64,000 nucleotides of DNA from an uncultured virus (IMG/VR IMGVR_UViG_3300032116_021735) (Duplodnaviria > Heunggongvirae > Uroviricota > Caudoviricetes). Position numbers and translations under genes: made by a program. Location of the stretch: the IMG/VR virus record IMGVR_UViG_3300032116_021735. One strand, given 5' to 3'. Shown in pieces: positions 1-57,028 of this stretch (position 1 is its first letter; every line of letters starts with the position of its first letter). A model generated the notes under the pieces. The model saw only the letters and a list, made by a program, of their open reading frames with translations. It was not told where the DNA came from and made no database searches.

Positions 1-3754
<3,754 letters not shown>

Positions 3755-5873: not shown

Positions 5874-8800
5874 CTATGGAACATATTCCACATCAAAGGT
5901 GGCATCCCGGCGGGCCCCGTTCACCATGTAGAAGTAGTTAGGTTTAATTCCAAATAACCTCATGAACCATCCTCTGCCTATTTTAACTCGATTATTTTCG
6001 ATGGATTCCACGTACAACGATTGCCACTTTCCGATGGGGGTGAGTTGCACCGCGATGGAGGCGGGATCTACGAGGGGTTCCCAGTAATCTGGTAGATCAA
6101 TCACTTCAGATTGTGATGCTCCACGAACGTAAATACCGTTTTCAGGCCCTTCGAGGGATCCGTACCGCAGCTTCCATCCTGGGCGGATCGGGTGAGGAAT
6201 CACGAATGATTTTGTGGCCGCCGCGAATGTGCCCGCAACCTCCAGGTTGAACGCTGGTGCGGATGTTCCGATGCCAACGTTTCCGGAACCACTCACGAAG
6301 AGTAGGTTGGCTCCTGCGGAGTTTTGCAACCACATCACGGCAGTTCCCGAGGCGGATGCCTGGTTCTCCCTCGCGTAGAGGGTGTGAGTTGTTGTGCCTA
6401 TGGAGCCGTTGATGTGGAGGCGAGCGGTGGGAGTTGCTGTTCCGATTCCAACGTTTCCACCCGAAGCGATCGCAACCTGGTTGGTGTTTCCCTCACGGAA
6501 ATGGATGATGTTTCCCGTGGGTCTGTTGATGTAGAGGTTCTGATCCGTTGCACGTGAGAGGATGTTGTAATCGTTATCCGTTGTGGATCCATTGAGTGTG
6601 ATGCCTGCGTAATTGGCGAACACTTCTCCGATTCTCACGTTGGTGGATGCTGCGTTTGGTACCTGAACCGTAAGGAAGGCTGTGGGAGAACTCGTTCCAA
6701 TGCCGACACGCCCATTGCTGTTGCTCCACCAGAAGTTGTTGGATCCGCTCAGGAGGCCGCCTGTGCCAGCCACAACAACCTGACCTGCAGTGAGGTTGCT
6801 TCCCGTGAGTGAACCGGAGATGTTGCCCGCGTAAAGGTTCCTCCACCTCTTGGTAGATGAACCGAGATCCCGTGTGAGATCACCATCGGGGTTAACGGAA
6901 CCTGAAAACACCGAGTTGCCAGCCACAACGAGGCGGGAACTATAATCCATCACGGAGGTTCCGATGCCCACGTTGCCTGCGGAATCTATTCTCATCCTCT
7001 CGGTGGCACCACCATCCTCAGAAGTTCCAAAAACGAGATCTCCTTGAGCGGATGCATGAGCTCTGATCACACTCCAGATTGCTGCAGCATCTTCTGCGTT
7101 TGAAGTTACGAAGCTCAGAGAAGAGAAGTTTCCATCCGTTGCAGAATTGTTCTGTATTGCTATGCGAGCACCGAGACCGTAAGAACTCGTGTCTGTGCTG
7201 CTGTCTGCAACCACAAGTTTAGCAGATCCACCAGCACCGTTTGGCGTTCCCACATTGATAGGACCAACTGCAACATCGAGGGCAACTGCGGGTGAAGATG
7301 TTCCGATTCCAACTCTCCCGTTGCTGTTGCTCCACCAGAAGTTGTTGGATCCACTCAGCAACCCACCAGCACCGGCCACCACCACCTGACCTGCTGTGAG
7401 ATTGCTTCCCGTTATCGATCCGGAGATGCTCGATGCGTACACGTTCCTCCACCGCTTCGTGGAGCTTCCGAGATCGTAGGTGAGATCCGCAGATGGATTC
7501 GCTGAGCCTGAGAACACAGAATTTCCGGCAACCACGAGGCGGGAATCGAGACCTATCGTTCCGATACCCACGTTTCCTGAGGAATCCACGATGACTCTGT
7601 TTGCCGCTGCCGTGAGATCGTAGAGCCTCCAGTAGCTCGCTGCTGCTGAACCCGCATCAACAACCTGTGCCATGAATCCGCGATAGGTGCCAACGAGATC
7701 GATGCGTGGATCAGCAACCTCAATACGCCCTGCCCCGCGAACGTCAAGTCTGAAACCCACAGTCGGGCTTGACGTTCCGATGCCAACATTTCCGGATGCA
7801 TCTATCCTCACTGCCTCTGTTCCGCTCGCACCTGAGGTTGCTCCCGTGTATATCGTAACGGGAGATCCCTCGAGGGTGAGTTCTCTGAGAGTATCCGAGG
7901 AGAGAGGATTAATCGCGGTTATCTTCACTGTGGAAGAAATGTTCGATTTGATCGTGAGGGCTCGATCCTGGTGGGTTGTGAAGCGTGCAGTTGAACCACC
8001 GGTCACCGTGTTGCCCACGAGGAGGTTTCCGTACAACTGCGTGTTTCCCGTAACATCGAGTCTGTAACCAGGAGATGATGTTCCGATGCCAACGTTTCCA
8101 TCATCTCGAACGAAGAGGAGTGTTGAGTTGCTTCCATTCACGAGGTGCATCGTGCTCGTGCTTGAGGTTGCACCACTCCCTGTTACTTCGAATCGAGACA
8201 CAGGGCTTGGACCACCGATGGAGAACTTGCCCACAGTTTGCTGCACGTTGCTCACGGGGCTGAGGAGGATGTTTCCGTTGTAGCGAAGCGCTCCTCCCGA
8301 AACTCCGAAGATGGTGGATGATCCAAAGTTCACGTTGAAGGAACCGTAAGCCCCTCCGCCTCGGTTGAGATCAAAGTACACATCATCGTTCGTTCCGGCC
8401 GCTGGGCCTCTGATGTAGTGTGTGTGATTGGCCGCAGATGTGTTCGTAGATGTTACGGTGAGGCCGTTTCCATAGGTGGCTCCGCCACCGATGCCGAGAG
8501 TTCCTCTCACATCAAGCGTGTTTGTAGGGGAACTCGTTCCGATGCCCACCTGGTTCGCTGAGTTGTTCCACCAGAAGTTGTTGGATCCGGAGAGGACTCC
8601 TCCCGTACCTGCTACCACAACCTGCCCAGCGGTGAGGTTGCTTCCTGTGAGCGAACCGGAGATATTTGCCGCGAACACGTTCCTCCACCGGAGCGAGCTC
8701 GAGCCGAGGTCCTGCGTGGCATCTGCACCCGGTGTTACGTTTCCGGTCGAGGAGATGGTGAGCCTTATGTTACCACTTCCATCCCTGTAGTAGTGTTGGT

Positions 8801-11800
8801 TGGCATCGTAATAGTTGTTGGATCCCACGTATCCGATGTAGAGGTTTGCCGCATTGGGCACCGATCCGTTCACAACGTGGAATGCAGCCTGAGGCGCGCT
8901 TGTTCCGATGCCCACCCGGCCGTCGTCCCTTACGAAGAGGAGAGACGTTCCGCTACTGTTGACGAAGTGGGCAGTTGTTGTTGAAGAAGTTGCTCCACTG
9001 CCTGACACGAGAAGTCGAGCAGTGATTAGTGCGCCTGTTCCTATACCGATGTTTCCATTACCCCCGATCACAAGCGCTTCATTTGATGCAACGCCGCCGA
9101 TAGGTCCTGCAAAAACACTCAATCGTTCGGTGGCACCATTGACCCCAAGAACCTCCAACTTGAAGCGAGCCGAATCATCACTTGCAGTGAACTGAATACG
9201 TGCTCGTTCGCTTCCGTTATTACCTAGAGTGATGCCAGTCGTGTCGCCTGAAGCGAGATTACGTGATTTGATCTGGCCAACAACGTCAAGCCTGTACAGC
9301 GTAGGATTGGTAATTCCTATACCTACGTTACCACTGCCGGAGACGAACAGAATGGAAGTTCCTGCCGAGTTCTGCACATCAAGGACGGGAAGCCCGGCCG
9401 TTTGTGATGCAACTCCCTCCCTGATGATTGCGGCTGCTGCGGTGCCTGCAGTTGTGTGGCCGAGAACCTGCAGAGTTGCAGTTGGGTTGGTGGTGCCGAT
9501 TCCCAGGTAGGAGTTGGCCTGTGGCATCACAGCCTTCTTCTTCGTGCCATCATCCACCACGGTGAGAACCGCCGCGTTTGCACTGATGATGGAAACCGAT
9601 CTCTGCTGGTTGTTGCCAAGGTTGAGGGTATCGGTACTTCCCAGACCATCGCTTATCCAACCAGTACCGATCCAGTGAACAGTTCCACCCACACTCGAGT
9701 TGGTGAGCGCGATCTGCGGTAAAGCTCCTCCTGTTGCCCTGTTTACCTGCAGAACCGTTGATCCCTGGATCGTTGAAGTTCCGATGCCCACCTGGTTGGT
9801 TGAGTTGTTCCACCAGAAGTTGTTGGAACCGCTCAGCAAGCCACCTGTACCAGCAACCACAACTTGACCTGCAGTGAGGTTGCTCCCTGTTACAGATCCG
9901 ATGATGTTACCTGCGTAGAGGTTCCTCCACCTCTTGACTGTAGAGCCGAGATCTCTCGTGAGATCAGCATCCGGGTTCGCAGATCCCGAAAACACCGAGT
10001 TACCGTTCACTGCGAGGCGAACATCCGTGATTGTAGTTCCCAATCCCACGAATCCCGAGGCATTCATCACGATGCCATCTGCCCTGTTTGCCGGATAGAG
10101 AACGTTACCGTTATCGCTCGTTTGCGAGATGTAGAGGCTTCCCGAGAGCTGCCCGATGCTGTAGTGGACTCGACCACCATCGTGGATCTTGAAGCCAACT
10201 CCGTTATCGAATGCGAGGTTAGTAGTTGCATCACCCAATCTAAAGAATGCTGCGTTCACATCAACTGATGGAGTTGCGGTTGCATCGTTCTGCGTTGTGT
10301 AGATGTGCAACTTTGATGTGGGTGTTGCAGTTCCAATTCCCACGTTTCCTGTGGATGTGAAACGGTAGTTTCCATCATTTCCATTGCCAGCCTGGAACTC
10401 TAGGGGATAAGCTGTTCCGAGGCTCTGTATCTTGGAAACGTTATTGCCACCTGCGAGGAGTATTCCGTAGCCGGAATCGATGGCAGCAATTGTTCGCGTT
10501 CCAGCAGATGCTCCGCTTCCCACCTGCAGGTTGTATCCTGGGTTCGTGGTACCAATGCCCACGTTGCCAGTAGTGGTAACTCCGAGGTATCTGGAAGCGT
10601 TGTTGTACTGCAGGAAGAAGCTGTTTCCTGCATTGTTATCTGTGATGAGTTGCCACAGATCGGTGGTATCTATCCTCAGGTTGTATCCCACGGTACCATT
10701 TGGAGAGGCACCCGAGCTTGCTCCTGCAGTTACCTGAGGACCGGCCACATTGCCAAAAACGTAGAGGGGTGATGCCAATGTGGGAGCAGCACCGATACCC
10801 ACCTTGCCGGAACCGCTCACCATGAGAATGTTGGTTCCTGCTGAGTTCTGTGTGTTGAGGATGTAGGCACCCCCAGTGGCCGTTGCAACTCCCTCACGCA
10901 CGAGGAATGTTGTATCCGTTGTTGTTGAGGATCCGGTTACGAACAGCCTCGCCTGTGGATTGGTGGTTCCGATGCCCACATTTCCGTTGTTTGCGAGGAT
11001 CGTTAACCTGTAAGTACCTGTGTTCGAATCCCTGAATCCCCAGGCACCTGCGAACGTATTGTGCGTGATTACGTTGGAGGTTGATGGGAATCCTGCAGGG
11101 TTATCCTGCGCTATGATGGAATCGTTCGTATCATTGCCAACGATGAGGTAGCTTCCCTTGTTGAGTTTCAATGATCCGTTGAGGATATCGAGTGCATATC
11201 CTGGGGATGATGTTCCAATACCGACTCTCCCTGTGGAGTTTTCCCACCAGAAGTTGCTGGAACCCGATATCAATCCTCCCGTTCCTGCAACAACCACCTG
11301 CCCGGCCGTGAGGTTGCTTCCGGTGAGGGATCCTGAGATGCTTCCAGCATACACGTTCCTCCACCGCTTCGTAGTAGAACCTAGATCACGTGTGAGATCA
11401 CCATCTGGGTTCGCAGATCCCGAGAACACGGAATTACCTGCAACAACGAGGCGGGAGTCGAGTGCGCTCGTTCCAATTCCAACGAAGCCACTTCCGCTCA
11501 CGAAGAGGAGAGAAGATCCCGCGGAGCTCTGCACATCGAGAACTCCCACTCCGCCTGCGGGAGATGCAACTCCCTCTCGAACAATCATCGTGGGTGTTGA
11601 TGTGTTTACGGATCCGGAGACAAACAGCCTCGCAGTGTACGATGTAGTTCCAATTCCTACGTTTCCGGCTGAGTTGATGAACATCCTCTCGGTGTTACCG
11701 ACTGTCTTGAAGACCAAGGAATTTGCGTAGTTGCTGCCGCCAACGTACCACTGTTGTTGTTGAGATTGATCAACACCTCTTATGGCATTGCTGTACCCGT

Positions 11801-14800
11801 TCGCTCCAGCTTGCAGAGTGAGAATGGTGCTTCCAAAAGTACTTGCGTTCTCGAACCACGGATAGTGATCGGAAGCGTACTCATTCTTGTACACGTGGAG
11901 TGTATCGTTCACCGTATTCGTGCCGATGCCTACTCCGAATGTTCCGCCTACTCCCAATGCGGTTGCATCCGCTCGAACTGACAAGAGGTGGCTTCCATCC
12001 CATTTCTGAACCGAGAGAACCTGAGCAGTGGGAGAATCAACTCCTGCTTTTACCGTGAGTGTTGGGGTGCTCGAGGTGGATCCCGAGATGAAGAGAGTGC
12101 TCGTGGCCGTTGTTGTTCCGATCGAAACGTTCCGCCCAAGGGGGTTGAGATATAGAGGATAGAACACCGATCCAATGTTGGATATCTCTCCCGTTTGAAT
12201 GTAGCTTGCTCCACCTATCGAGCCAATTAGCAGGCCTCCTCCTGCACTTCCCTCGATTCCAAGGAGGGCGTTTGAGGGGCTTATCGTGGAGTTGGATGCT
12301 CCCAGCACATACAACTTGCTCTGAGGTGTGCTTGTTCCAATGCCCACTTTTCCGGTGGAGTTGCTCCACCAGAAGTTGTTTGATCCCGACAGAGCCCCGC
12401 TAGTTCCAGCAACCACCACTTGCCCTTCTGTGAGATTGCTACCTGTGAAGGTACCGATGATGCTCCTGCCGTAGATGAACTGCCAACGTTTCAGACCGTT
12501 GCCGAGGTAGTATGCCGAATCAGCATCAGGATTGATGGATCCCGAGAACACTGAGGAACCTGCAACAACGAGCCGAGCATCGAGCGCACTCGTTCCGATG
12601 CCAACATTCGTTCCATCATCGTAAATGATGGAGTTTGCGAGTGCCCTCTCGCTGGTGAACTTCGGAACGTAGTTGGCAGTGCCACTTCCCGTGATCGTGT
12701 TGGGCGATGATATGTTAACAGATCCGTTGGAGCCCGTTGCGATCGTGATGTTGGTGCCCGCGATGAGGTAGGAAGTGCCATCGGTAAGTTTCGTGAGAGA
12801 ACCACTGAAAGCCGTGGAATAAACGTTTCGCCAAAGCTTGGCCGTAGAACCCAGATCATATGTGCTTGTTGCACCGGGAAGTGCCGATCCTGTAACAGAT
12901 AACGATCCGTTCACGGCAAGCTTATCTCCCGTGTTTGATATTCCTATTCCCACGTTGCCGGAACCTGAAACAACGAGCAGGGATGTTCCATCGTTGCCTT
13001 GCGCCTCGAACACGGCACCTACCGGTGAAGCTATTCCCGCTTTAACAATGAGACCGGATGCTGCCGATGTGCTCGAACCAGAAACGAGGAGGCGGGCGAG
13101 CGGATTGCTCACACCGATTGAGCTCATGCTTCCGATTCCAACGTTTCCGTTGCCATCTAAGAGAACTTTTATCGTGGATCCATCCGAGTGCCTGAAGATG
13201 TGGTTGTAGGCATCGTAGTAGTTGAGAGAGGCACCAAAGAACTGGGAGCCTATGAACAGGCCGAACGCGGCATTTCCCGTGTTGCTGCTGGATACTTGGA
13301 ATTTGCCTCCGGCAACGGGCACCACCGGGGATGAGGGGATGTTCGTTCCCACACCCACGAAGCCGCTGCCGCTCACGAAGAGAAGCGAAGATCCTGTGTA
13401 GCTCTGTACATCAAGTACACCCACTGCCGTTGTGGATGCAGTTACGCCCTCTCTGATCGTTGCTGTAGGCGTTGTTGCTGATGTAGATCCTGAAACGTAG
13501 AGCCTCGAGCCGTACGTGCTCGTGCCGATACCAACATTTCCGCTTGTATCGATCCTCACCCTCTCTGAGTTTGATGTTCTGAGTGCTATAGCTCTTCCGG
13601 TTCCCGATTCTATTTGCAGGCCGCTCAGCTCCTGCATGTAAGTTCCAGAATCTCTGAACAAGAGTTTTGAAGCTCCATTCACCAGGAGTGTGGCGGAATC
13701 ATTGTTGCCCACATGAAGCGTGGCCGAAGGTGAAGTGTTGTTCACGCCAACGTAGGTGCCATCATCGTATATGATACTGTTGGCTATGGCATTTCCGCTC
13801 GTGAACTTCGCATGGTAGTTCACCGTGCCGCTGCCAGTGATCACGTTGCTGCCGCTCACGAGAGATCCGAAATTCACCCACGTTGGTGCAGATGTTCCCG
13901 CAGATTGCAGGATTTGCCCTGAGGTTCCCGCCGCAGAAGAAGAGAGATGGCCCGAGGTGTTGAAGTAGCCCACACCTCCCTGTGTACCTCCAGATATTGT
14001 GTTAGAATTAAGGCCCGATATCGGTAACGTTTTATTGTAGAGATTATCTGTGGATCCCGTGGTTACAACGTTGATCTCGGCACCAACAAATCCGGCCTTC
14101 CACCGATCCGTTACCGTATCCCAGATGAGGGATCCCGTGGTGTTGGCTGTGGTATCGGCAACGTATACACCTCCGAAGTTGAGGGGAGATGGGCCTGCGT
14201 TGAGGAGGATCGCGTTATCCTTGATGTTCACGATCTCGGAGTTGATGATGGAGGATGTACCCAGCACGCGGAGATCTCCCGATACGTTGAGATCTCCTGA
14301 GAAGGAACCGGTGCGGGCATACACATCCCGCCACGAAGCCGTTGCCGATCCCAGATCGTAGGTGAGGCTGAGGCCTGGTAGGAAGGAGCCCGTGAGGGCG
14401 GTGGTTCCGAGGATGGAGAGGGCGTTTCCGTTGAGCACCGTGGTTCCGATGCCAACAGCTCCGCCTGCGTTGTAGATGGTGGAGGAGTTTCCAATGGATC
14501 CGGCACCGGTGAACACGGGAACGTATCCCGCGGTTCCTGTTCCCGTTACTGTGGAAGGCGAGGAGATGCTAACGGATCCGTTGGAGCCCGTTGCGATCGT
14601 GATGTTGGTGCCTGCTATGAGGTAGGAGGTTCCATCGATCAACCGCGTGAGAGAGCCTGAGAGCCCGGAAGCCCCGAAGAGAGTTCCGCTAACGTATGTA
14701 TCGCCTGCAAAAAGTGAGCGATCTGTGCCGCCGATGGTGCCCGTTACGTAGAGGAACACATTCGTTCCAGCCGGTACGGTTGCCATCGATTGCCGCACCA

Positions 14801-18011: not shown

Positions 18012-18012
18012 T

Positions 18013-22442: not shown

Positions 22443-23776
22443 GGATTAACGTCTCTTTCAGTAAGAATTATGCTGTCATTTAATGCGGAATCAAATAATC
22501 CAGGTTTCGTAGTTCTTTGAACTCTTATCCCGCCTCCACGGCATATTTCAGATGCAGAACTTGACAAAGCTGTTATAGAAGAAGAAAGAAAAGACGACGG
22601 AATCATTGAGGGATATTCTACGCTCTGCGCAATAAAACTCACGGTAGATAAGTCGTTAAATGTTGCGCCGCTCGAGAGAAAAGATCTTTCATCCCTAGCT
22701 TTTATAATTGATCTGTTTTGTTTTTTAGACTCACTTCTCAAGTATCCGCCGTATGCAATTGAATCCGTCCCTTTTACAGCCTGATCATAGGTAAATCCAC
22801 AAGTTGCAGATCTTTCCTTCGATGTTACGTAAGTGGTTCCACCGGGCGGAAGATCTTCAAGAGCAGATATCAAGTCTTCCGTGTAGGAAGAATTCGGTTT
22901 TTCTCCCCTCGTATAGCGAGCATCCTCAAAGAATGAGATGCCGTTCTCTCCAGTTGAAGCATATCCTAGCGAAGGACCAACAATCACGCCGCCCCCGTTT
23001 TCATCTGGCATTCCGATCAGATCTACTGCATCGAAATAGGGCGACTTATTTGTCCTTGATGGTTCGAAGTAGTCGACCGACAACACTTGATCTGAGTACA
23101 GAAGAATTGTGGTGTTTCCATTTCCGAACTCTCCGCGGGTCGCGTGCGGCTCGAATGGGAAATTAATTGAAGAATTTGAAATTACAGGTCTTATCGGGAA
23201 AGGCTCTATGATTCCGTTTAAGACGAGATTTTCTTCTTGATTGCTGTTGGAGGTGACTATGGGGTAGACTATGTTATTTGAACTACCTCCGATTTCAACA
23301 AAAGTGACAGGATTGAAAGTCTCTACCTCGTAGTAGACGTCAGGAGACAGTATGTCAAAATCTGTGTATCCATATCTCTGAGAATCGTACAAGTGACCCG
23401 GTGTTCCGGCAGTTATCTTGGCAACACCAGCCGTCCAGTGCTTCTCCTGCGTTATTTCTATTCCGTTCTTGTAGGAGTCTATGCTCCCAGATATCAGATA
23501 GTCATTTGAAGATGCTAGAATTTTTCTATCATTACCGCTCGCATCTGTGACAGTCGAGCTTGTCAAGTAAAGGCTGTGGCCGTACTCCAGGTCATCTTTA
23601 ACTATCCTCTTTCTGGACATTAGACCCGAAACTGCATTTGACCCAGAAATTCTTGACGGAGACGTGGTTTCTAGGAAGCTTCGATTTCGTCTTATCTCTA
23701 TCTGTTCTCTCGTGTTAAAGTAATTACTTTCACAGTCAATATTGATAAAGTCTATCTTTTTTGGTTGCTGACTCAT
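22439..23776 (-). CDS. Putative virion structural protein, 445 aa
   Basis: Operon context between baseplate and fibre genes. Confidence 0.55.
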   Translation of the reverse strand: MSQQPKKIDFINIDCESNYFNTREQIEIRRNRSFLETTSPSRISGSNAVSGLMSRKRIVKDDLEYGHSLYLTSSTVTDASGNDRKILASSNDYLISGSIDSYKNGIEITQEKHWTAGVAKITAGTPGHLYDSQRYGYTDFDILSPDVYYEVETFNPVTFVEIGGSSNNIVYPIVTSNSNQEENLVLNGIIEPFPIRPVISNSSINFPFEPHATRGEFGNGNTTILLYSDQVLSVDYFEPSRTNKSPYFDAVDLIGMPDENGGGVIVGPSLGYASTGENGISFFEDARYTRGEKPNSSYTEDLISALEDLPPGGTTYVTSKERSATCGFTYDQAVKGTDSIAYGGYLRSESKKQNRSIIKARDERSFLSSGATFNDLSTVSFIAQSVEYPSMIPSSFLSSSITALSSSASEICRGGGIRVQRTTKPGLFDSALNDSIILTERDVNP

Positions 23777-23779
23777 GGC

Positions 23780-26700
23780 CTAGTACTTCTTTAGCTTTCC
23801 GACAATTTGTTGAACCAATAAGCTGTCTTCTATTACCTGCCTATCTCCGAGGTAATTGTCGCTGTGTCTGTACGTGTTCTTGTGCCTTTCAAGAACGTGA
23901 GACTCAACTACAAAATTGGTTCCCTTGTAAAGAGTTTTGCTTGGTATGAGCTGTTCGATGAAAGACGACATCGATACATCAAACCATCGATAAAACTCGA
24001 GAAACTTTCTAAAATCTGGTTTTCCTGAGAGTCTGTTGAAATAGACGTCTCTCAGTCTCTCAAGGTCTGGGTAGTCTGGTGAGAACATCAGCTCTGGTGC
24101 GCCTAGCGCATTATTCAAAGCGTCAAATGACGAGAACATGGAGATTATGTCTTTGTCTAGAGAGTCTACCATTGAAAATTCGATGGATAGCCTTAAGTCG
24201 TCAACGGGCTCCTCTTGTAAGAATCTCTCGTTACTTAAGAAGCTGGGCGCCGGTATTGCCCAGGGATTCTCTTCTATTAGATCGTTGCTCTCAAAACTTC
24301 TGATTCTAATCTTGTCGTCAGTTGCGGCTTCATCAAAGAACGGAGAAAGATATGAATAGTTGAATATCTCTCCAGAGAGAACCTTTTCTCCAGGTGAGAA
24401 ACCACTGCCTGTAGCTTCCAAATTATTCTTGCTAAAATCAAGAAACTGTATATTTCCTAGATTGTCTGAGTTTTTTTGAGGTTGCTTTTGAAGCGTGTCC
24501 AGACGTAACTTCTGGAAAGATCCTGAAGCTTTATTGATAAAATTGTAGTTTACTAAGGGATTGTTGACACCAACAGACTTCGGATTTCTTACGTGCTCTT
24601 TCCACTCTTCCGCAGTCATAGATTTTGTCCAAAATCTAAGATTACCAGCTCTGCCTACGAATTCTGTCGTTCTTGCAACGTCGTCGACGTTTAGCGTGTC
24701 ATTCAAGAACAGGTATCCAATTCCTTCGGGAATTGTCTGATTAGATCCAATCGATATAAAGGAGCCCGAAGAATTGTACTGTATCGATCCAGTTCTAAAA
24801 ATATTCCCAGCGTTAGCTGGGTCTTCTTGAAAGTATGATGCGGTAACATAAGCATCTGAAAGCTCTCCTGATTCACACTTTCCAACCCTGAGATAGTAAG
24901 AAGAAGAAACGTCTGATTCTATTTCGTCGTTTCTTTTACATCCGAGCGACACATTCCAGACGTCTCCGTCAAATATTCCTTTTCCTCTCATGTCAATGTT
25001 GAGAGAAAGCACGGGAGAATTAGACGACATGCCAGGTCTCAAGAATGCCTTGATGGATGCAGGCTGCTTTGGATATTCTTTGTTCTGTACGGCTACAACG
25101 TTTGCAATAAGACCAGGACCTGACGTAACATTGCTGCCCGTTACAAATATCCTAAAGATAGATTGACCTTCTGCGCTTGTCGCTTGAGATAATTTTTGGG
25201 GAGGAATTTTGAATATTGCCTCCATGTTCCAAGAGCCCGACGTCAATAGACCGTCCCATTGATAGTCAGTTCCTAGATTGACGCCAAGATCATTTTTATA
25301 AAAATTACCTCTCGGTAAAGGGAACCCAGGTTCAACTCTAGAAGACGATAGCGGGTAAGTAACTACGAGGGAAGAAGTTAGAAAATCGACCATCGCAAGC
25401 GACTCTATCCTCTTTTCTCTTGATGAAGACAGCTGCTTTATGGATGATCCACCGTATTCTCTTATTCTAATGCTGTTATCAGGATCTATTCCAATCGATC
25501 TCAAGAAAGATCTTATGCTGTGTTGAGTACCTTTTGACCTGATGATGTCAGGCATGTTTATTAGCACTCTTCGTGTTAAAATTGATTGTATCTTCTTTAG
25601 CGGAGTTTCAAAATTTGTTAAACCCTCTATTGCCTGACCCTCAGCAAATTGTTCAACTGTAGAATTGTTAAAGAACTTAGGAAGATAGAAGCCATAGTGT
25701 CTAATCATGTCTTCTAGAAAGTTGTCTGGTATGCTCTCTTCGTCGTTGTAGCTTACCGTCTTGAGAGTCACAAAAGCGTCTATGTAAGTTTTAATCTCAT
25801 CAAAGAATTTTGCCCAAATGTAAAGAAAAGACAGAATTATCTGTACAGAGCCTCTCTTTCCTTGACCCGGTATCCCTTCTCCTCCGTAAGGACTACCTCC
25901 TTCTCCTTCGATCGTGTTAAATCCATCCTGAGAAGCACCCTCGAGAAGATAGTGCTGCGGGATTAATTTAATAATATTGTTGGGATTATTTCTGTCGAAG
26001 TTGCTTGCTGACAAGAGCAAGCTTGCGTTTAGATTTAAAATCTCAGAGTAAGCAGGAAATAATATTTTTTGAAAGTCGCTTCTTTCATTGACAAGCAGGT
26101 TACCTTCTTGGTCAGATGCATTAATTCTAAGATCGCTATTGAAATTATTCACATTTGCATGCAAAGAATTACCAGAACTGTCAAGGACAATTGAATCAAT
26201 TGAAGAATTTCCATTCAAAGAAAGAGAACCGGAGGGTTCATTAAATCTATAATATAGCTTCAAATCAGGGGTCGAGTATAGACCCATCGAAGAGAAGAGT
26301 TTTTGAGTTTTTTCATCTCTGACAGAGTGAAAAACTCTTAGTTCATCCATCGTTCCGCTTAGAGTTTGAGTTGGACTAACAAGTGTATCACCTGAATAGA
26401 AGGAGCTGCCTGACCCTATCAAGAAGTTTGAATTGTCTATGTTTAACTTTTTAATTCTTAAAGAATTGAAACTTTGTGAGGCAAGAGTTTCGTTTACATA
26501 GAACTGTAGGACATCTTCCCTTGTGTCTTGTTTGTTAAGAATTAAGCATAGATGATTGTATTTGCCTTTTGCTAGTGTTGCAGTAACATTATTTCTTACA
26601 GATCCGGAAGCAACGCAGAATACAGCATTTGTGTATTCTGTCGATGAAGAGGGCTCTAGGTAAAAAGTAAAACCATCTATCAGTGACGATGTTTTTTGAA

Positions 26701-27277
26701 TTACAATCTGTGTGTCATTCGTAATTGTTGGTAAAAATAGTAAAATCTCCAAAGAAAGAGAATCACCATCCCCGGGATTTAATACGGGCTCTCCCTTCTT
26801 GTTCTTTGCGAGGTCGGGATACAACGTTCCAGATTTATCCTTGACAGATATCCAGTTGCCGCTGTTAGATGAAGGAATTTCTCCTACTTGCGTGCCAGAA
26901 AAGTGAAGAGCTCCCGACCACGTAGGAAAAGAATCAAATACCCACTTCTCATATCCCGTAAGAGAATCTAAAAATTCTTCTACTTCTTTTTTTGTTCCAT
27001 CAAAGGGATAACCATTAATGATTCTATTGAATGCTTCGTTAACTTTGACCTCTGCCGAAGAGAAAAATGTATGATTTTCAAACTTCGACCAGTCTAGATT
27101 TATCTGCTGTGTGCTTTTTAATGGATAGTCTAGTGGATCGTATTTAAAAGAATTTTCACTTTCGCTGTTAGAGTCCGAAAGATTAAAGTCTGAGTAGCTT
27201 AGCTGTATGGGCCTGGTGTCCCTAATTGAGCTTTTTATGAAAGAAGGTACAAAAGGAGAGTTGGATCTAGTTGTCAT
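23780..27277 (-). CDS. Large baseplate-associated protein with LamG-like domains (1165 aa)
   Basis: LSGTMDELRVFHSVR..LKLYYRFNE LamG-like signature; 'IIRSKGTQHSIRSFLRSIGI' resembles the KGT motif of P2 gpI/tail-formation wedge proteins; SD AAGGAG upstream. Confidence 0.65.
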   Translation of the reverse strand: MTTRSNSPFVPSFIKSSIRDTRPIQLSYSDFNLSDSNSESENSFKYDPLDYPLKSTQQINLDWSKFENHTFFSSAEVKVNEAFNRIINGYPFDGTKKEVEEFLDSLTGYEKWVFDSFPTWSGALHFSGTQVGEIPSSNSGNWISVKDKSGTLYPDLAKNKKGEPVLNPGDGDSLSLEILLFLPTITNDTQIVIQKTSSLIDGFTFYLEPSSSTEYTNAVFCVASGSVRNNVTATLAKGKYNHLCLILNKQDTREDVLQFYVNETLASQSFNSLRIKKLNIDNSNFLIGSGSSFYSGDTLVSPTQTLSGTMDELRVFHSVRDEKTQKLFSSMGLYSTPDLKLYYRFNEPSGSLSLNGNSSIDSIVLDSSGNSLHANVNNFNSDLRINASDQEGNLLVNERSDFQKILFPAYSEILNLNASLLLSASNFDRNNPNNIIKLIPQHYLLEGASQDGFNTIEGEGGSPYGGEGIPGQGKRGSVQIILSFLYIWAKFFDEIKTYIDAFVTLKTVSYNDEESIPDNFLEDMIRHYGFYLPKFFNNSTVEQFAEGQAIEGLTNFETPLKKIQSILTRRVLINMPDIIRSKGTQHSIRSFLRSIGIDPDNSIRIREYGGSSIKQLSSSREKRIESLAMVDFLTSSLVVTYPLSSSRVEPGFPLPRGNFYKNDLGVNLGTDYQWDGLLTSGSWNMEAIFKIPPQKLSQATSAEGQSIFRIFVTGSNVTSGPGLIANVVAVQNKEYPKQPASIKAFLRPGMSSNSPVLSLNIDMRGKGIFDGDVWNVSLGCKRNDEIESDVSSSYYLRVGKCESGELSDAYVTASYFQEDPANAGNIFRTGSIQYNSSGSFISIGSNQTIPEGIGYLFLNDTLNVDDVARTTEFVGRAGNLRFWTKSMTAEEWKEHVRNPKSVGVNNPLVNYNFINKASGSFQKLRLDTLQKQPQKNSDNLGNIQFLDFSKNNLEATGSGFSPGEKVLSGEIFNYSYLSPFFDEAATDDKIRIRSFESNDLIEENPWAIPAPSFLSNERFLQEEPVDDLRLSIEFSMVDSLDKDIISMFSSFDALNNALGAPELMFSPDYPDLERLRDVYFNRLSGKPDFRKFLEFYRWFDVSMSSFIEQLIPSKTLYKGTNFVVESHVLERHKNTYRHSDNYLGDRQVIEDSLLVQQIVGKLKKY

Positions 27278-27289
27278 TTATTTCTCCTT

Positions 27290-28819
27290 TCAAGATGCAT
27301 AAAAAGATCTTTCGATTTTAAAAATCGGGGAGACGTCTCGAAACAGCTTTTTGATCCCATTGTGAGATATTAGAACATCTATGACATAAGTTCGACCAGG
27401 AGACAAATTTGAAGCGTCAAGATTAAAAAACATACCGCTTGAATCGCTCGAGATTCTTGTTGAATTTTTCTCTTCATCAAACGGGACTATTGTATTTCCC
27501 GATACAGCGTCTCTTATTTGGTAAAAAACATTTCTTATTACAGCACGTGGAGACTCTACTGGGAGCTTAGAAATCTTAATTCCTGGGTGGGATGCATCAA
27601 ATATGTTGACTCTCACCGTCTGTTCTTCGTTGTCAAAGTACGAATCTTTGATATCTGTGATGGTGACAGTATAGTTCTTTATGCTTCTAGTAGAGTTACG
27701 ATGCGGAGACGAAAAAGTAAGAGTGCTTCCTGTCAAGTAATCGACTGTTCCGTCAATAGAAGACCAGACCGGGGTGAAATCTACGGATCCAGACTGTAAT
27801 ATCTTTGTTTTTATAACGGGGTCGTTTGAAGAGAGGTTCACGACAGAGGAATATGTTCCTGTCAAGTACGTCGAACCCAAAGAAAATTGAGAACCAGAAA
27901 ACTGAGTTTTATAAAATCCTCCTGAAACTTCTGTAAGAAGACTGAGTACAACACAATTGCTCCCAGTTACTTCTGACAAAGAACTGCCTGAAAGGATGTT
28001 GCTCAGAGATCCTGCAGCGTAGTTGTAAAGATTGAGATTGCAGTTTGTATCAAAAGTTAGATTTTGTGAATCATCTGAGATTGAATCGTCAAATCCGATC
28101 GTCAGTCTCGGTCTTTTTAATTCGCTATATGCTGTCCTTGAGGCAAATCTTTTTACGAAATAAGTTTGATTATTGTCTTCAATTGAATTTTTAAAACTTA
28201 TTCTGAGACCACTATCCGGAAGCTCCCCGGTAAGCGTGGCAGACATTATCTTTGTCACATCTACTAGAAGCTCTTCTTCACCGCTCTGAAATCTTTGTGT
28301 GACTTCTGTGTTTGGTATGCTTACTGAACTAGTTATGTAGTCTCCTGCGCTAGTCGCGTCAACCGAAAGATTGCATCCCGGTAAATACCAACTATTTCCT
28401 AACGAAGCAGTAATCCAGTTGCAGGCATCGTAATCAGAGAAATAAGATATGTCTTTTCCTACTCCTTCGTCAAATGACGAAGATAAAGGAAAAACACTGA
28501 CATCAAAATTGCTGGGAGTTGTCTGTCCACCGTAGACATCGCTTAAGTGTACTTTGCACCAAAAGCTGGAGTCACTTACATCCAGCTTACCTTGTTTCAC
28601 AAGAGACTTTATAGAAGAAAGATCAAAGTGAATCAGAATTCTTGAAATTTCTGTGTTTGGAGAAGATCCTGAAAAAGTAGATCCGTAAAGTTTAAACAGG
28701 TCAAGAGTTCCTGCCCCTCCGGTGTTTGAGTTGTTCTTTCTTTCTCCTCTAACTACCTTGTTTGTAATGTAGGCGTCTTTGTCTGCTTTGACTATTTTAA
28801 ACATATCTTTTCCTATCAA
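27290..28819 (-). CDS. Putative baseplate-associated structural protein (509 aa; start may be ATG at 28804)
   Basis: Directly downstream of the gp6-like gene; KADKDAYIT..SRILIHFDLS..FASR..RPRLTI resembles DNRLRE-type beta-sandwich virion domains. Confidence 0.6.
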   Translation of the reverse strand: MIGKDMFKIVKADKDAYITNKVVRGERKNNSNTGGAGTLDLFKLYGSTFSGSSPNTEISRILIHFDLSSIKSLVKQGKLDVSDSSFWCKVHLSDVYGGQTTPSNFDVSVFPLSSSFDEGVGKDISYFSDYDACNWITASLGNSWYLPGCNLSVDATSAGDYITSSVSIPNTEVTQRFQSGEEELLVDVTKIMSATLTGELPDSGLRISFKNSIEDNNQTYFVKRFASRTAYSELKRPRLTIGFDDSISDDSQNLTFDTNCNLNLYNYAAGSLSNILSGSSLSEVTGSNCVVLSLLTEVSGGFYKTQFSGSQFSLGSTYLTGTYSSVVNLSSNDPVIKTKILQSGSVDFTPVWSSIDGTVDYLTGSTLTFSSPHRNSTRSIKNYTVTITDIKDSYFDNEEQTVRVNIFDASHPGIKISKLPVESPRAVIRNVFYQIRDAVSGNTIVPFDEEKNSTRISSDSSGMFFNLDASNLSPGRTYVIDVLISHNGIKKLFRDVSPIFKIERSFYAS

Positions 28820-30717: not shown

Positions 30718-31185
30718 TTACATAACATACAAGACTATTTGAAGAGATTTCTTTGTCACTTCAAGTGCGGGTATATTGTATGTGATTGTAATCTTAATAA
30801 TTGCCGTATTTTTATTTTCAATTCTATCTACTGTAGAGGAAAAGTCTTCTAGGTCGATGAAAGGCATCCACTTTTGTACTGCGTTTCTTATTCTGTCAAT
30901 TGCTTCCGTATCAAAAGAATCTTGAGAAACAAATTCTGAAGTCAAGGGCTTTAAATTTGCTCCAAAATCATAATGTCCTAATCTTTCTCCCCAATTTGTC
31001 AGTAAAAGATTTTTTAGATTGTCAGCAAATTGGTCTGCCAAGCTATAGTTCATAGCAAATATGCCCTCGCTAGTTCCGAGCGCTAGCGGTGTCTTAATTC
31101 CAAAAGGTATGCGAGAAACCTCAGGAGTTTCTTCTGCAATTTGCTCTCTTGTCTTTCCAACGCTTTTAAAGCTATAAGCTGCCAT
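30718..31185 (-). CDS. Baseplate wedge protein, gp25/GPW-like
   Basis: NLKNLLLTNWGERLGHYDFGANL..IRNAVQKWMPFI motif of the gp25 family. Confidence 0.88.
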   Translation of the reverse strand: MAAYSFKSVGKTREQIAEETPEVSRIPFGIKTPLALGTSEGIFAMNYSLADQFADNLKNLLLTNWGERLGHYDFGANLKPLTSEFVSQDSFDTEAIDRIRNAVQKWMPFIDLEDFSSTVDRIENKNTAIIKITITYNIPALEVTKKSLQIVLYVM

Positions 31186-33871: not shown

Positions 33872-34176
33872 TCTTCTTCTTTGCCTTCTATTGAATCTTC
33901 AATCATAGAATCATCTAGTAATTTTGCAACTCGTACGACAGCATTTTTTGATTCTATGATGTCTTTTATTAAGTTTCTCACAACGGGTTCATCAGAAAAA
34001 ACCTCTAATTTAGCTTTTTGCTCGATCTTTTTGGATTGGATTTCGAGTATTTCTAAAGAATTCTCAAGAGCTTCTTGTATTTCGTCTATCTTTTCCATAA
34101 GCTCTATGTTCTTTTTTAGACTTATGGCTAGAAATGACGCAATCAAAAAAAATGATACTGAAACAATTTCTATCAT
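33868..34176 (-). CDS. Small protein with N-terminal transmembrane helix and coiled coil
   Basis: Likely start MIEIVSVSFFLIASFLAISLKK (ATG at 34176 overlapping the upstream stop), then heptad-rich sequence. Confidence 0.6.
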   Translation of the reverse strand: MIEIVSVSFFLIASFLAISLKKNIELMEKIDEIQEALENSLEILEIQSKKIEQKAKLEVFSDEPVVRNLIKDIIESKNAVVRVAKLLDDSMIEDSIEGKEEE

Positions 34177-36622: not shown

Positions 36623-36667
36623 TGTCCCTATATTACCCAAAAATGAAAAGTTGTAATAAAAGTTAGA

Positions 36668-37490: not shown

Positions 37491-37520
37491 ATACTAACAC
37501 GTGAGACGGTAACAGTTCAA
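37491..37520 (-). promoter_or_regulatory. Sigma70-like promoter for the Cas4-like gene
   Basis: Minus strand TTGAAC-18nt-TAGTAT with extended -10 (TGn), ending 10 nt before the ATG. Confidence 0.5.
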
Positions 37521-39075: not shown

Positions 39076-39081
39076 CTATTC

Positions 39082-43261: not shown

Positions 43262-43262
43262 T

Positions 43263-44523: not shown

Positions 44524-44527
44524 TAAA

Positions 44528-47993: not shown

Positions 47994-47997
47994 GTTA

Positions 47998-48699: not shown

Positions 48700-48700
48700 C

Positions 48701-56960: not shown

Positions 56961-57028
56961 AATTTCATTTCTCAAATTTCTAAATTTATTTCTATTTAAC
57001 TCTTAAGAAAGTACTGAGCTAGGGAGAA

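What the first reader, a model, noticed from the sequence alone, without database searches (positions are those of the whole stretch)
5874..28819. [S/T]-G-S motif concentrated in peripheral virion proteins but absent from the inner baseplate: candidate O-glycosylation sequon
Seen (manual count of SGS/TGS): 9 in the 1165-aa protein, 6 in the 509-aa, 5 in the 861-aa, 4 in the 615-aa, 2 in the 445-aa, and dozens in both fibres, usually after a hydrophobic residue (VSGS, FSGS, LSGS, ISGS, VTGS, LTGS). Related VTAS/ITSS/LTSS variants also recur. I found none in the gp6-like (623 aa), gp25-like or spike-like (490 aa) proteins. The motif recurs in unrelated sequence contexts, so it is not one repeat family. 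Inference: it is a recognition signal for the adjacent glycosyltransferases, placed on surface-exposed proteins.
Basis: partly seen in the sequence, partly recalled or inferred. Interest (0 to 1): 0.78.

Follow-up and report, generated by a model that had tools for sequence, protein, structure and literature searches.

The report
Ser-Gly-Ser mark on phage virion proteins
The outward-facing tail, fibre and sheath proteins of this large water phage and of hundreds of relatives carry the short motif Ser/Thr-small-Ser several times more often than chance; it may mark where the phage puts sugars on its own particle, but no chemistry shows this and one relative has the motif without the sugar genes.

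Summary
In the five proteins downstream of the gp6-like gene, [ST]GS occurs 26 times against 6.5-7.1 expected; 0 of 2000 shuffles reached 26. SGS and TGS rank 1 and 2 of 8000 tripeptides. Codons vary, so the signal is at protein level.

It replicates in 53 distant loci: SGS, TGS, SAS, TSS, TAS and SSS are the six top tripeptides. The motif is therefore [ST]-[GAS]-S. It sits in exposed virion proteins (distal baseplate, fibres, sheath outer domains) and is rare in the gp6-like protein. Non-virion ORFs sit at baseline in the window and in G002.

T4, cyanophage S-RIM2 and LR756508 lack the signature.

The glycosylation reading stays circumstantial. For it:
- a phage-specific GT4 (GTa) plus an all-soluble sugar island occurs in every complete genome with the signature;
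- DNA glycosylation is excluded in phage immuto by published LC-MS.

Against it:
- G031, estimated 92% complete, has the strongest signature but no GTa, GTb or island homologue;
- LR756508 has GTb without the signature.

Best reading, about 0.4: Ser O-glycosylation sequon. Main rival, about 0.33: an unmodified structural surface motif. This scan noted the same motif earlier on two other genomes. I found nothing in print.

The parts
27290..28819 (-). 509-aa protein directly after the gp6-like gene. It is built of several beta-sandwich domains and carries 6 [ST]GS. Five of them are conserved sites (residues 277, 285, 308, 343, 363) inside a lineage-specific insertion of about residues 247-384.
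   Evidence: Counts. Shuffles: 6 vs 1.25. AlphaFold pLDDT 81. Ig/FN3/CBM-like fold matches. 68 orthologues: 413 vs 63.6. Conserved sites. Insertion relative to immuto, Mel-JY01 and LR756508 homologues.
23780..27277 (-). 1165-aa distal baseplate protein with LamG-type jelly-roll domains and helical segments. It carries 9 [ST]GS. Sites near residues 225, 290, 681, 714 and 919 are almost invariant in the family.
   Evidence: 9 vs 1.66, 0/2000. Pfam Laminin_G_3. Model and fold matches. 67 orthologues: 575 vs 108.1. Site conservation.
22439..23776 (-). 445-aa protein with 2 [ST]GS. Not significant alone; its orthologues are enriched.
   Evidence: 2 vs 0.97, P 0.25. 15 orthologues: 40 vs 12.2.
20595..22442 (-). 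615-aa protein with 4 [ST]GS. All four are conserved sites in the family.
   Evidence: 4 vs 1.20, P 0.028. 40 orthologues: 236 vs 63.0. Sites.
18013..20598 (-). 861-aa protein with 5 [ST]GS.
   Evidence: 5 vs 1.34, P 0.013. 12 orthologues: 64 vs 18.7.
5874..18011 (-). 4045-aa fibre protein with 62 [ST]GS in 30 context clusters. Ten internal repeat families each keep the motif.
   Evidence: 62 vs 17.5, 0/2000; SGS rank 4. Weak collagen hit.
2..3754 (-). Second fibre with collagen repeats, cut by the window end. It carries 8 [ST]GS and is not enriched.
   Evidence: 8 vs 5.0, P 0.13; extended motif 10 vs 10.5.
28816..30687 (-). gp6-like baseplate wedge protein with no motif. It is depleted across orthologues.
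   Evidence: about 32% identity to annotated baseplate wedge proteins; 4 vs 33.3 in 68; 12 vs 37.9 in 77.
30718..31185 (-). gp25-like baseplate wedge protein with no motif.
   Evidence: Pfam GPW_gp25. 65 orthologues: 2 vs 6.1.
31241..32713 (-). No motif in the window. It has no family assignment here.
   Evidence: no Pfam hit. 39 orthologues: 13 vs 18.6.
34176..35372 (-). GTa: a phage-specific GT4-type glycosyltransferase and the candidate priming enzyme.
   Evidence: Pfam Glycos_transf_1. E-x7-E stretch read. Homologues in immuto and Mel-JY01 at E 1e-58 and 1e-31. Syntenic in 33 loci. All 30 nearest Atlas hits are viral.
35369..36640 (-). GTb: a second GT4-type glycosyltransferase next to GTa. 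It does not track the signature.
   Evidence: Pfam. E-x7-E stretch. Homologue in LR756508 at E 2e-56, which lacks the signature.
36668..37480 (-). PD-(D/E)XK nuclease that precedes GTb-GTa in all three deep lineages.
   Evidence: Pfam. Same gene order in immuto and Mel-JY01.
37517..56975 (-). About 19.5-kb island of soluble sugar-nucleotide and glycan-building enzymes:
- UDP-sugar dehydrogenase;
- PseF-like CMP-transferase and a NeuB/PseI-like synthase;
- GDP-mannose 4,6-dehydratase;
- RmlA-, RmlB- and RmlD-like enzymes;
- four methyltransferases;
- 4 GT4-type and 3 GT2-type transferases.
   Evidence: Pfam. NCBIfam. No hydrophobic segment in any of the 25 proteins from 34176 to 56975.

Best explanation
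[ST]-[G>S>A]-S is a selection-maintained mark on the solvent-exposed domains of virion proteins. These are the distal baseplate, fibres, sheath outer domains and head-associated proteins. The mark runs through a large clade of aquatic myoviruses that includes this window's jumbo-phage family, Flavobacterium phage immuto and Microcystis phage Mel-JY01.

The most likely mechanism is as follows. The near-invariant third-position serine is the acceptor of a post-translational O-glycosylation. This is carried out in the host cytoplasm, before or during assembly, by soluble phage-encoded glycosyltransferases. GTa (34176-35372) is the best candidate for the first sugar. The variable island (37517-56975) would supply activated sugars and extend the glycan into a strain-specific coat.

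Shown: the motif, its specificity, its location and its conservation; the presence and solubility of the enzymes.

Inferred: that the serine is modified at all; that the modification is a sugar; that GTa is the enzyme.
For: **Sequence-level specificity that a turn or composition effect does not predict.**
- SGS, TGS, SAS, TSS, TAS and SSS are ranks 1-6 of 8000 in 121 non-redundant proteins (89,421 aa) from 53 distant loci.
- NGS is 0.78x, DGS 1.2x, AGS 1.3x, SGT 1.7x and GSG 1.8x.
- At motif sites the middle residue alternates with S (35 site-states) and A (21), not N (4) or D (4). The third residue is S (85), then T (28).

**Position turnover with kept density.**
- In three protein families there are 15 conserved sites and 106 lineage-specific columns.
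- The distant homologues of the 1165-aa protein carry their motifs at other positions.
- 42 of 42 loci with at least 1000 aa downstream of gp6 have ratios of 2.3-7.9.

**Location.**
- Enrichment is confined to virion modules: 121 vs 49.4 against 20 vs 21.2.
- It lies in the non-core parts of the capsid and sheath proteins.

**The same folds exist without the motif in LR756508.**
- Post-gp6 protein: 0 there against 3, 4 and 6 in the three signature lineages.
- Mel-JY01 against LR756508 virion orthologues: 40 vs 6 motifs.

**Enzymes.**
- nuc-GTb-GTa plus a variable sugar island is present in all three deep lineages.
- GTa is found in 12 of 22 relatives' contigs, including the only one at least 90% complete.
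- None of the 25 proteins from GTa to the island's end has a membrane segment.
- All 30 of GTa's nearest Atlas hits are viral.
- immuto DNA contains only dA, dC, dT and a formyl-preQ1 base (bioRxiv 10.1101/2023.04.13.536721, passages).

**Negative controls without GTa.** T4 7 vs 8.4. S-RIM2 74 vs 50.4 with SGS at rank 37. LR756508 112 vs 80.2.
Against: - No chemical evidence of any modification exists.
- G031 (176 kb, CheckV estimate 92%) has the strongest signature: 218 vs 60.5, with SGS and TGS at ranks 1 and 2 in its virion block. It has no homologue of GTa, GTb, the nuclease or any island gene by the genome search, blastp or tblastn. Its only GT-like ORF is very weak (Pfam E 0.035) and is not GTa-like (hhalign probability 0.3%).
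- GTb and sugar genes occur in LR756508 without the signature.
- Profiling found no enzyme shared by all signature genomes and absent from the controls.
- GTa and the motif share one ancestry, so their co-occurrence is close to a single evolutionary contrast.
- Absence of GTa in the other 10 of 22 and 16 of 18 contigs is uninformative, because they are 10-56% complete.
- Solvent exposure was not measured, because no coordinates were available.
- Non-virion proteins are not depleted of the motif in the window (5 vs 5.03) or in G002.
Confidence: 0.4

Rival explanations
1. The motif is an unmodified structural element of this clade's fast-evolving beta-sandwich and fibre domains. It would be a strand-end or edge-strand element with two outward hydroxyls and a small inward residue. 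It would be inherited and reused by domain shuffling, and would have nothing to do with the sugar genes.
For: - The 509-aa protein is a chain of Ig/FN3/CBM-like sandwiches and the 1165-aa protein holds LamG jelly rolls.
- Sites fall at hairpins and strand ends, with V/I sometimes replacing T at position 1.
- In the fibre the motif is embedded in repeat units.
- G031 keeps the signature without the GT cluster.
- By recall, not from a call: antibody light-chain framework 3 keeps a structural 'RFSGS' in an Ig sandwich.
Against: - Homologous folds in LR756508 do without the motif.
- The three small LamG proteins at 3801-5865 have none.
- A Gly-dependent turn predicts N/D alternates and NGS/DGS enrichment, which are not seen.
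- A beta-strand surface should favour T over S at position 3, yet S dominates.
- The 15 modelled sites occupy hairpin, pre-strand, post-strand, mid-strand and long-loop contexts rather than one structural slot.
- The flanks of the 26 sites share no similarity.
- T4 and S-RIM2 tail proteins, also beta-rich, show no excess.
Confidence: 0.33
2. The motif is an acceptor for a modification that does not depend on GTa, GTb or the adjacent island. This could be another sugar transferase (host-encoded or an unrecognised phage enzyme) or a different chemistry on serine, such as phosphorylation or acylation.
For: - The strict third-position serine and the S/T first position point to hydroxyl chemistry.
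- G031 has the signature without the GT cluster.
- In G031 the non-virion ORFs are depleted of the motif: 3 vs 13.7, P 0.0006. This is what one expects if something in the infected cell acts on it.
Against: - No candidate enzyme is shared by all signature genomes.
- Hosts span at least two phyla (Flavobacterium, Microcystis), which makes a common host enzyme less likely.
- The depletion is not seen in G002 or in the window.
Confidence: 0.15
3. The motif forms hydroxyl-rich surface patches that act directly, for example by weak binding to host polysaccharide or by keeping the particle hydrated, without being modified.
For: It is located on exposed domains of fibres, sheath and baseplate. LamG and CBM-like lectin folds lie in the same proteins.
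Against: Single scattered tripeptides in unrelated contexts do not form arrays. This reading gives no reason for the strict order [ST]-small-S against SGT, AGS or GSG.
Confidence: 0.07

Closest known systems
Virion O-glycosylation of mycobacteriophages by phage-encoded glycosyltransferases (Freeman et al. 2023). The paper is not held. I saw only how PMC12619734 describes it.
   Same: Phage-encoded soluble glycosyltransferases are proposed to decorate the phage's own structural proteins in the cytoplasm.
   Different: There, the glycans sit at the C-termini of capsid and tail-tube subunits of siphoviruses of actinobacteria, and this was shown chemically. Here there is a dispersed internal tripeptide on baseplate, fibre and sheath proteins of large myoviruses of Gram-negative hosts and cyanobacteria, with a far larger sugar island and nothing shown chemically.
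Self-encoded glycosylation machinery of giant viruses (chloroviruses, mimivirus fibrils). The review PMC9614988 was seen only in a search listing; the details are recalled.
   Same: Virus-encoded, host-independent sugar-nucleotide synthesis and transferases, with methylated and rare sugars on surface proteins.
   Different: Those are eukaryotic viruses, with different acceptor sites and enzyme families.
Hypervariable 'host recognition cluster' or LPS-type islands of aquatic myophages (PMC7029224, passages read).
   Same: Glycosyltransferases and sugar genes sit beside tail-fibre genes in a variable island of large aquatic myoviruses.
   Different: That paper interprets them as modifying the host O-chain. 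It reports no acceptor motif and no virion target. S-RIM2, a cyanomyophage of that kind, lacks the motif signature.
Probable G-[T/S]-X recognition sequence of the heavily O-glycosylated S-layer protein of Kuenenia stuttgartiensis (PMC5088730, passages read).
   Same: A short glycine-serine/threonine context is proposed as a bacterial O-glycosylation site, with methylated sugars.
   Different: That is a cell-surface protein of a bacterium, and its glycopeptides were observed by MS. The motif is defined only by the preceding glycine, whereas here position 1 must be S/T and glycine can be A or S.
GtfA/GtfB glycosylation of serine-rich repeat adhesins. The abstract start of PMC7948813 was seen in a listing; the rest is recalled.
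   Same: Intracellular O-glycosylation of serines in S-x-S type sequence by a pair of GT4-type proteins.
   Different: GTa and GTb both keep the E-x7-E stretch, so neither looks like the inactive partner. Similarity to Gtf1 chains is not significant (E about 0.8). The acceptors here are isolated tripeptides, not long repeats.
'Moraphages', an aquatic jumbo-phage lineage with four core glycosyltransferase groups (PMC12619734; abstract and passages read).
   Same: Large aquatic phages sharing core genes: gp6, gp25, sheath, PhoH, Clp and chaperonins. Hosts are predicted in Bacteroidota. The authors mention virion glycosylation as one possible role.
   Different: I did not test whether this window belongs to that lineage. 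The paper reports no motif.

Membership tests
Phage-encoded virion O-glycosylation system | Glycosyltransferases encoded by the phage itself | tested here: met
   About nine GT domains between 34176 and 56975. GTa and GTb homologues in immuto and Mel-JY01.
Phage-encoded virion O-glycosylation system | A glycan covalently attached to virion proteins | not testable with these tools
   This needs mass spectrometry or glycan staining of virions. Five literature searches found none for this clade.
Phage-encoded virion O-glycosylation system | The pathway works on a soluble cytoplasmic acceptor, with no lipid carrier, flippase or polymerase | tested here: met
   None of the 25 proteins from 34176 to 56975 has a 19-residue hydrophobic segment; the highest Kyte-Doolittle mean is 1.43. 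No Wzx, Wzy or polyprenyl-phosphate transferase family was found.
Phage-encoded virion O-glycosylation system | The acceptor motif co-occurs with the transferase across genomes | tested here: inconclusive
   - Signature with GTa: the window family, immuto, Mel-JY01 and G014 (91% complete).
- No signature and no GTa: T4, S-RIM2 and LR756508.
- Exception: G031 (92% complete) has the signature without GTa or GTb.
- GTb is present in LR756508 without the signature.
GT4-type (GT-B fold, retaining) glycosyltransferases, for GTa and GTb | Match to Glycos_transf_1 above the curated cut-off, and the E-x7-E stretch | tested here: met
   GTa 38.3 bits and GTb 45.1 bits against a cut-off of 26.4. Both show E-G-[YF]-G-L-P-x-L-E in the alignment. 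That this stretch is the GT4 signature is recalled.
GtfA/GtfB-type pair (one active enzyme plus one inactive substrate-binding paralogue) | One partner has lost the catalytic or nucleotide-sugar motif, and the pair shows significant similarity to Gtf1/GtfA | tested here: not met
   Both proteins keep the E-x7-E stretch. Gtf1 chains appear only at E 0.7-0.9. Complex formation was not tested.
Glycine-dependent tight beta-turn as the sole reason for the motif | The middle residue is replaceable by N or D but not by A or S; NGS, DGS, SGN and SGT are enriched alike | tested here: not met
   Alternates at position 2 are S 35, A 21, N 4 and D 4. SAS is 3.2x, TAS 3.2x and TSS 2.6x, while NGS is 0.78x, DGS 1.2x and SGN 1.3x. 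The turn preferences themselves are recalled.
DNA-glycosylating phage transferases | Glycosylated bases in virion DNA | tested here: not met
   For immuto only, from a paper: LC-UV-MS found dA, dC, dT and formyl-preQ1. Mel-JY01 has no ThyA-family hydroxymethylase candidate. The window phage's own DNA is untested.
Bacteroidota general O-glycosylation sequon D-[ST]-[AILVMT] (recalled) | Enrichment of that sequon; periplasmic transfer | not tested
   Virions assemble in the cytoplasm, so I did not count this sequon.

The most novel reading that the evidence does not exclude
A whole clade of large aquatic myoviruses, infecting hosts as far apart as Flavobacterium and Microcystis, runs its own sequon-directed protein O-glycosylation system. 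A conserved phage-only GT4 primes the serine of [ST]-[GAS]-S on every exposed virion surface. A hypervariable, exporter-free sugar island then builds a strain-specific glycan coat. If so, the 'LPS-type' islands of aquatic phages dress the virus rather than the host.
Probability: 0.33. Interest if true: 0.9.

Novelty: new variant of a known kind. Interest (0 to 1): 0.72.

Why it matters
Large sugar-gene islands are common in aquatic phages, and their target has never been measured. The published reading is modification of the host surface (PMC7029224). A defined short acceptor motif on exposed virion proteins would make the alternative, a sugar-coated virion, directly testable.

Two cultured members carry both the motif and the genes: Flavobacterium phage immuto and Microcystis phage Mel-JY01. 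One virion glycoproteomics run on either could settle the question.

If the motif is a sequon, it gives the first sequence rule for phage protein glycosylation. It also gives a way to read glycan shields from metagenomes, and a possible explanation for the hypervariability of these islands.

If it is not a sequon, then a tripeptide that ranks first of 8000 across hundreds of phages still needs an explanation.

Tried and rejected
- **Composition or local low complexity.** Rejected by global shuffles and 10-40-aa local shuffles, and by GSG, SSG and GSS sitting near expectation.
- **A DNA-level motif.** Rejected. The 26 sites in the five proteins use 24 different 9-base codings and the fibre uses 44.
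- **One repeat family.** Rejected for the five proteins. True in part for the fibre.
- **A general property of tail proteins.** Rejected by T4 (7 vs 8.4) and S-RIM2.
- **DNA glycosylation as the job of the GT cluster.** Disfavoured for immuto by published LC-MS.
- **Lipid-linked export to the host surface.** Disfavoured, because no membrane protein lies in the island. Use of host export machinery is not excluded.
- **A GtfA/GtfB-like inactive partner.** Not supported.
- **The weak GT4-like ORF at the start of G031 as a diverged GTa.** Rejected (hhalign probability 0.3%).
- **A modifying enzyme shared by all signature genomes but absent from LR756508 and S-RIM2.** The search gave only a motif-rich structural protein, a 1348-aa protein and a 134-aa protein.
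- **Synteny between G031 and Mel-JY01 around the GT cluster.** It could not decide absence, because the replication modules are unrelated.
- **The 1165-aa protein in isolated phages.** No match by tblastn.
- **The window's own genome.** Not held.

Full report
**What is in the window.** All genes from 2 to 56975 lie on the minus strand. In gene order they are:
- a roughly 19.5-kb island of sugar-nucleotide and glycan-building enzymes (37517-56975);
- a PD-(D/E)XK nuclease (36668-37480);
- two GT4-type glycosyltransferases, here GTb (35369-36640) and GTa (34176-35372);
- small conserved proteins and a 490-aa protein;
- a gp25-like protein (30718-31185) and a gp6-like protein (28816-30687);
- five proteins of 509, 1165, 445, 615 and 861 aa;
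- a 4045-aa fibre (5874-18011) and three small LamG proteins;
- a collagen-bearing fibre that runs off the window.

The nearest record held is a 59.8-kb fragment rated 18% complete. Related contigs reach 204 kb at an estimated 60%, so this is a jumbo phage.

**Check of the observation.**
- In the five proteins [ST]GS occurs 26 times. Expectation is 6.48 from whole-protein shuffles and 6.74, 6.86 and 7.12 from shuffles confined to 40, 20 and 10 residues. None of 2000 shuffles reached 26 in any control. Analytic Poisson P is 6e-9.
- The fibre has 62 against 17.5.
- Among all 8000 tripeptides, SGS and TGS are first and second in the five proteins. GSG, SSG, GSS and AGS sit at 1.0-1.4x and NGS is absent (0 vs 2.1).
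- The coding is heterogeneous, so the signal is at protein level.
- The second fibre fragment is not enriched (8 vs 5.0).
- The window-only absence from the gp6/gp25/490-aa proteins is not significant (0 vs 1.19).
- Flanks of the 26 sites are no more alike than random S/T-centred windows: mean score -24.3 against -26.7 +/- 1.0, and best pair 10 against 10.9.
- The fibre's 62 sites include ten internal repeat families.

**The family.** The 1165-aa protein has relatives in 71 IMG/VR loci at 47-100% identity. I dropped four loci identical to the window and matches covering under 70% of the window protein. The remaining orthologues give:

| Protein | Orthologues | Observed | Expected |
|---|---|---|---|
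| 861 aa | 12 | 64 | 18.7 |
| 615 aa | 40 | 236 | 63.0 |
| 445 aa | 15 | 40 | 12.2 |
| 1165 aa | 67 | 575 | 108.1 |
| 509 aa | 68 | 413 | 63.6 |
| gp6-like | 68 | 4 | 33.3 |
| gp25-like | 65 | 2 | 6.1 |
| 490 aa | 39 | 13 | 18.6 |

These proteins are related, so the P values overstate independence. Alignments of three families show 15 sites kept in at least half of the sequences. Several are nearly invariant while the proteins average 58-60% column identity. A further 106 columns carry the motif only in some lineages. Instances split 759 to 484 between the two classes. At motif sites S and T interchange at position 1. G alternates with S and A, not with N or D, at position 2. S is followed by T at position 3.

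**Deep relatives and an independent replicate.**
- The gp6-like protein finds only Flavobacterium phage immuto, Microcystis phage Mel-JY01 and the uncultured 484-kb record LR756508, at about 30% identity.
- immuto (117 vs 46.7 genome-wide) and Mel-JY01 (140 vs 55.9) show the same pattern. It appears in their post-gp6 proteins, fibres and sheaths, for example 26 vs 5.9, 11 vs 1.38, 9 vs 0.6 and sheath 7 vs 1.28.
- A profile of gp6-like proteins fetched 80 further loci. gp6 was located in 77 of them.
- All 42 loci with at least 1000 aa of ORFs downstream have ratios of 2.3-7.9 (826 vs 165.0 in total, 40 of 42 at P<0.01). The other 35 give 135 vs 22.8. Their gp6 proteins give 12 vs 37.9.
- I took only loci whose gp6 is under 48% identical to the window's: 53 loci, 126 proteins, 121 after removing near-duplicates, 89,421 aa. 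The unbiased ranking there is SGS 411 vs 78.7, TGS 300 vs 55.4, then SAS, TSS, TAS and SSS. SGT is 1.7x, GSG 1.8x, AGS 1.3x, DGS 1.2x and NGS 0.78x.
- The motif is therefore [ST]-[GAS]-S. Flank preferences are weak: hydrophobic 37% against 26% on each side.
- Seventy-three sheath homologues give 308 vs 75.6. Nine of the 73 have one site or none.

**Where on the particle.**
- In G002, ORFs in the virion modules give 121 vs 49.4 and the other 116 ORFs give 20 vs 21.2.
- Its capsid protein has all four sites at residues 153-212, outside the part matching the capsid family (355-612).
- Its three sheath paralogues have all ten sites at residues 129-638, outside the conserved C-terminal core. immuto and Mel-JY01 sheaths behave likewise.
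- The portal has none.
- In the AlphaFold models (509 aa, pLDDT 81; 1165 aa, pLDDT 67) 13 of 15 sites are at hairpin turns, loops or strand ends, and 2 are inside strands.
- Exposure was not computed, because the tool returns no coordinates.
- The 509-aa protein is a chain of Ig/FN3/CBM-like sandwiches. The 1165-aa protein holds LamG-type jelly rolls.

**Phages without the signature.**
- T4 distal baseplate proteins and fibres: 7 vs 8.4.
- The T4-like cyanophage S-RIM2: 74 vs 50.4, with SGS at rank 37 and TGS at rank 855.
- LR756508: 112 vs 80.2, with no ORF below P 0.005 among 477.
- LR756508 shares the folds. Its post-gp6 protein is homologous to those of the other lineages (E 1e-21) but has 0 sites against 3, 4 and 6. 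At the one site aligned in all three signature lineages it reads TSG instead of TGS.
- Across eight Mel-JY01 virion proteins and their seven LR756508 orthologues the counts are 40 vs 5.8 expected against 6 vs 2.9 expected.

**The sugar genes.**
- The order nuclease-GTb-GTa, followed by a GT2 and a variable set of sugar genes, recurs in immuto and Mel-JY01 far from their baseplate genes.
- In the window family GTa lies just upstream of the baseplate operon in all 33 loci in which it was detected. It is present in 5 of 5 longer relatives.
- None of the 25 proteins from GTa to the end of the island has a membrane segment. No flippase, polymerase or lipid-carrier transferase family was found.
- Both GTs keep the E-x7-E stretch.
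- All 30 of GTa's nearest clusters in the ESM Atlas are viral.
- A preprint reports that immuto DNA contains dA, dC, dT and formyl-preQ1 in place of dG (passages). The homologous cluster there therefore does not glycosylate DNA detectably.
- Mel-JY01 lacks a ThyA-family enzyme.

**The co-occurrence test, and what goes against my reading.**
- GTa was found in 12 of 22 longer contigs of the gp6 set, including the only one at least 90% complete. The ten without it are 16-55% complete.
- In the sheath set it was found in 1 of 18 contigs. Sixteen of the others are 10-56% complete.
- The remaining one, G031, is rated 92% complete. It has the strongest signature of all: 218 vs 60.5.
- In G031's virion block SGS, TGS and TAS rank first to third. 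Its other ORFs are depleted, at 3 vs 13.7.
- G031 has no homologue of GTa (window or Mel-JY01 version), GTb, the nuclease, a GT2 or any island protein.
- 55 of its 85 ORFs of at least 200 aa were scanned against Pfam, and none is a glycosyltransferase at E 0.001.
- One ORF at the contig start has very weak GT4 matches (E 0.035) and is not GTa-like.
- Three other contigs have GT2 genes within a few kb of their ends. Assemblies therefore tend to break at these islands, and the missing 8% of G031 could hold one. That is a possibility, not a finding.
- LR756508 has a clear GTb homologue (E 2e-56), the nuclease, a NeuB-like gene and a GDP-mannose dehydratase, yet no signature. If any enzyme tracks the motif it is GTa, not GTb or the island as such.
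- Profiling for genes shared by Mel-JY01, immuto and G031 but absent from LR756508 and S-RIM2 found no enzyme.
- GTa and the motif share descent, so the positive cases are not independent.

**Weighing the explanations.**

For a chemical role of the third-position serine:
- the strict order and residue choice ([ST], then small, then S);
- the replacement of G by A or S rather than N or D;
- the spread over unrelated structural contexts;
- the turnover of positions with kept density;
- the restriction to exposed parts of the virion;
- the existence of the same folds without the motif.

A sugar is the most economical guess. These phages carry large soluble sugar pathways with no other known target, and there is precedent for phage-made virion glycans. 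I put this at about 0.4. The link to GTa specifically is weaker because of G031.

The main rival is an unmodified structural motif, at about 0.33. Next comes a modification independent of these enzymes, at about 0.15. A direct adhesive or hydration role is at about 0.07.

**Comparison with what is known.**
- Virion glycosylation by phage enzymes is known for mycobacteriophages. I saw this only as described in PMC12619734; the original is not held.
- It is also known, by recall, for giant viruses.
- Sugar islands beside fibre genes in aquatic myophages are published and are read as host O-chain modification (PMC7029224).
- A G-[T/S]-X context was proposed for an O-glycosylated S-layer protein (PMC5088730).
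- Five full-text searches found no report of a [ST]-G-S or [ST]-[GAS]-S motif in phage proteins. No paper on Mel-JY01 turned up.
- This scan noted the same motif earlier on two other genomes. One of those notes states that every phage with the excess has the transferase pair, and G031 is an apparent exception.

**Limits.**
- ORFs in relatives were called mechanically.
- Expected counts outside the window are analytic, not shuffled.
- The virion and other blocks in G002 and G031 were set by coordinates after seeing annotations or enriched ORFs.
- Completeness values are CheckV estimates.

Noticed in passing
window 3801-5865 (minus strand): Three tandem paralogous small LamG/ConA-like proteins (219, 225 and 242 aa) lie between the two fibre genes. 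They carry no [ST]GS. Their homologues sit beside the fibre genes of phage immuto.
   Followed up: partly
G031 (contig behind L282), ORFs outside 68-151 kb: Non-virion ORFs of this relative are depleted of the motif: [ST]GS 3 vs 13.7, P 0.0006, with TGS 0 vs 5.7. No such depletion appears in G002 (20 vs 21.2) or in the window (5 vs 5.03).
   Followed up: partly
G016, G024, G030 (contigs behind L171, L219, L256): GT2 genes lie within a few kb of the contig ends. Metagenome assemblies of these phages seem to break at the sugar islands, which makes 'no GT found' calls on fragments unreliable.
   Followed up: no
related loci L006-L069, between the 490-aa homologue and the gp25-like gene: Most relatives carry an extra, highly variable ORF of about 300-1000 aa at this spot. 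The window and its closest relatives lack it.
   Followed up: no
window 27290-28819, residues about 247-384 of the product: The 509-aa protein has a lineage-specific insertion relative to its homologues in immuto, Mel-JY01 and LR756508. Five of its six motif sites lie in that insertion.
   Followed up: partly
G002 102281-111697 (L093): Three tandem tail-sheath paralogues of 1016, 1016 and 1039 aa, each with a long N-terminal extension before the conserved sheath core.
   Followed up: no
L075/L105 (Mel-JY01 83441-84932): The GTb homologue of Mel-JY01 is annotated as two ORFs (190 and 302 aa). In G002 the match to GTa lies in an 805-aa frame read through one TGA.
   Followed up: no
window 33868-34269: The 133-aa ORF between GTa and the baseplate genes has the only predicted membrane segment of the region (residues 29-53). 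As called, it overlaps the 3' end of GTa by 94 bases.
   Followed up: no
L237-L245 (sheath homologues about 58-60% identical to Mel-JY01's): A sheath subgroup has few [ST]GS (0-2 each) but keeps an excess of the wider [ST][GAS]S motif (5-7 against about 3 expected).
   Followed up: no
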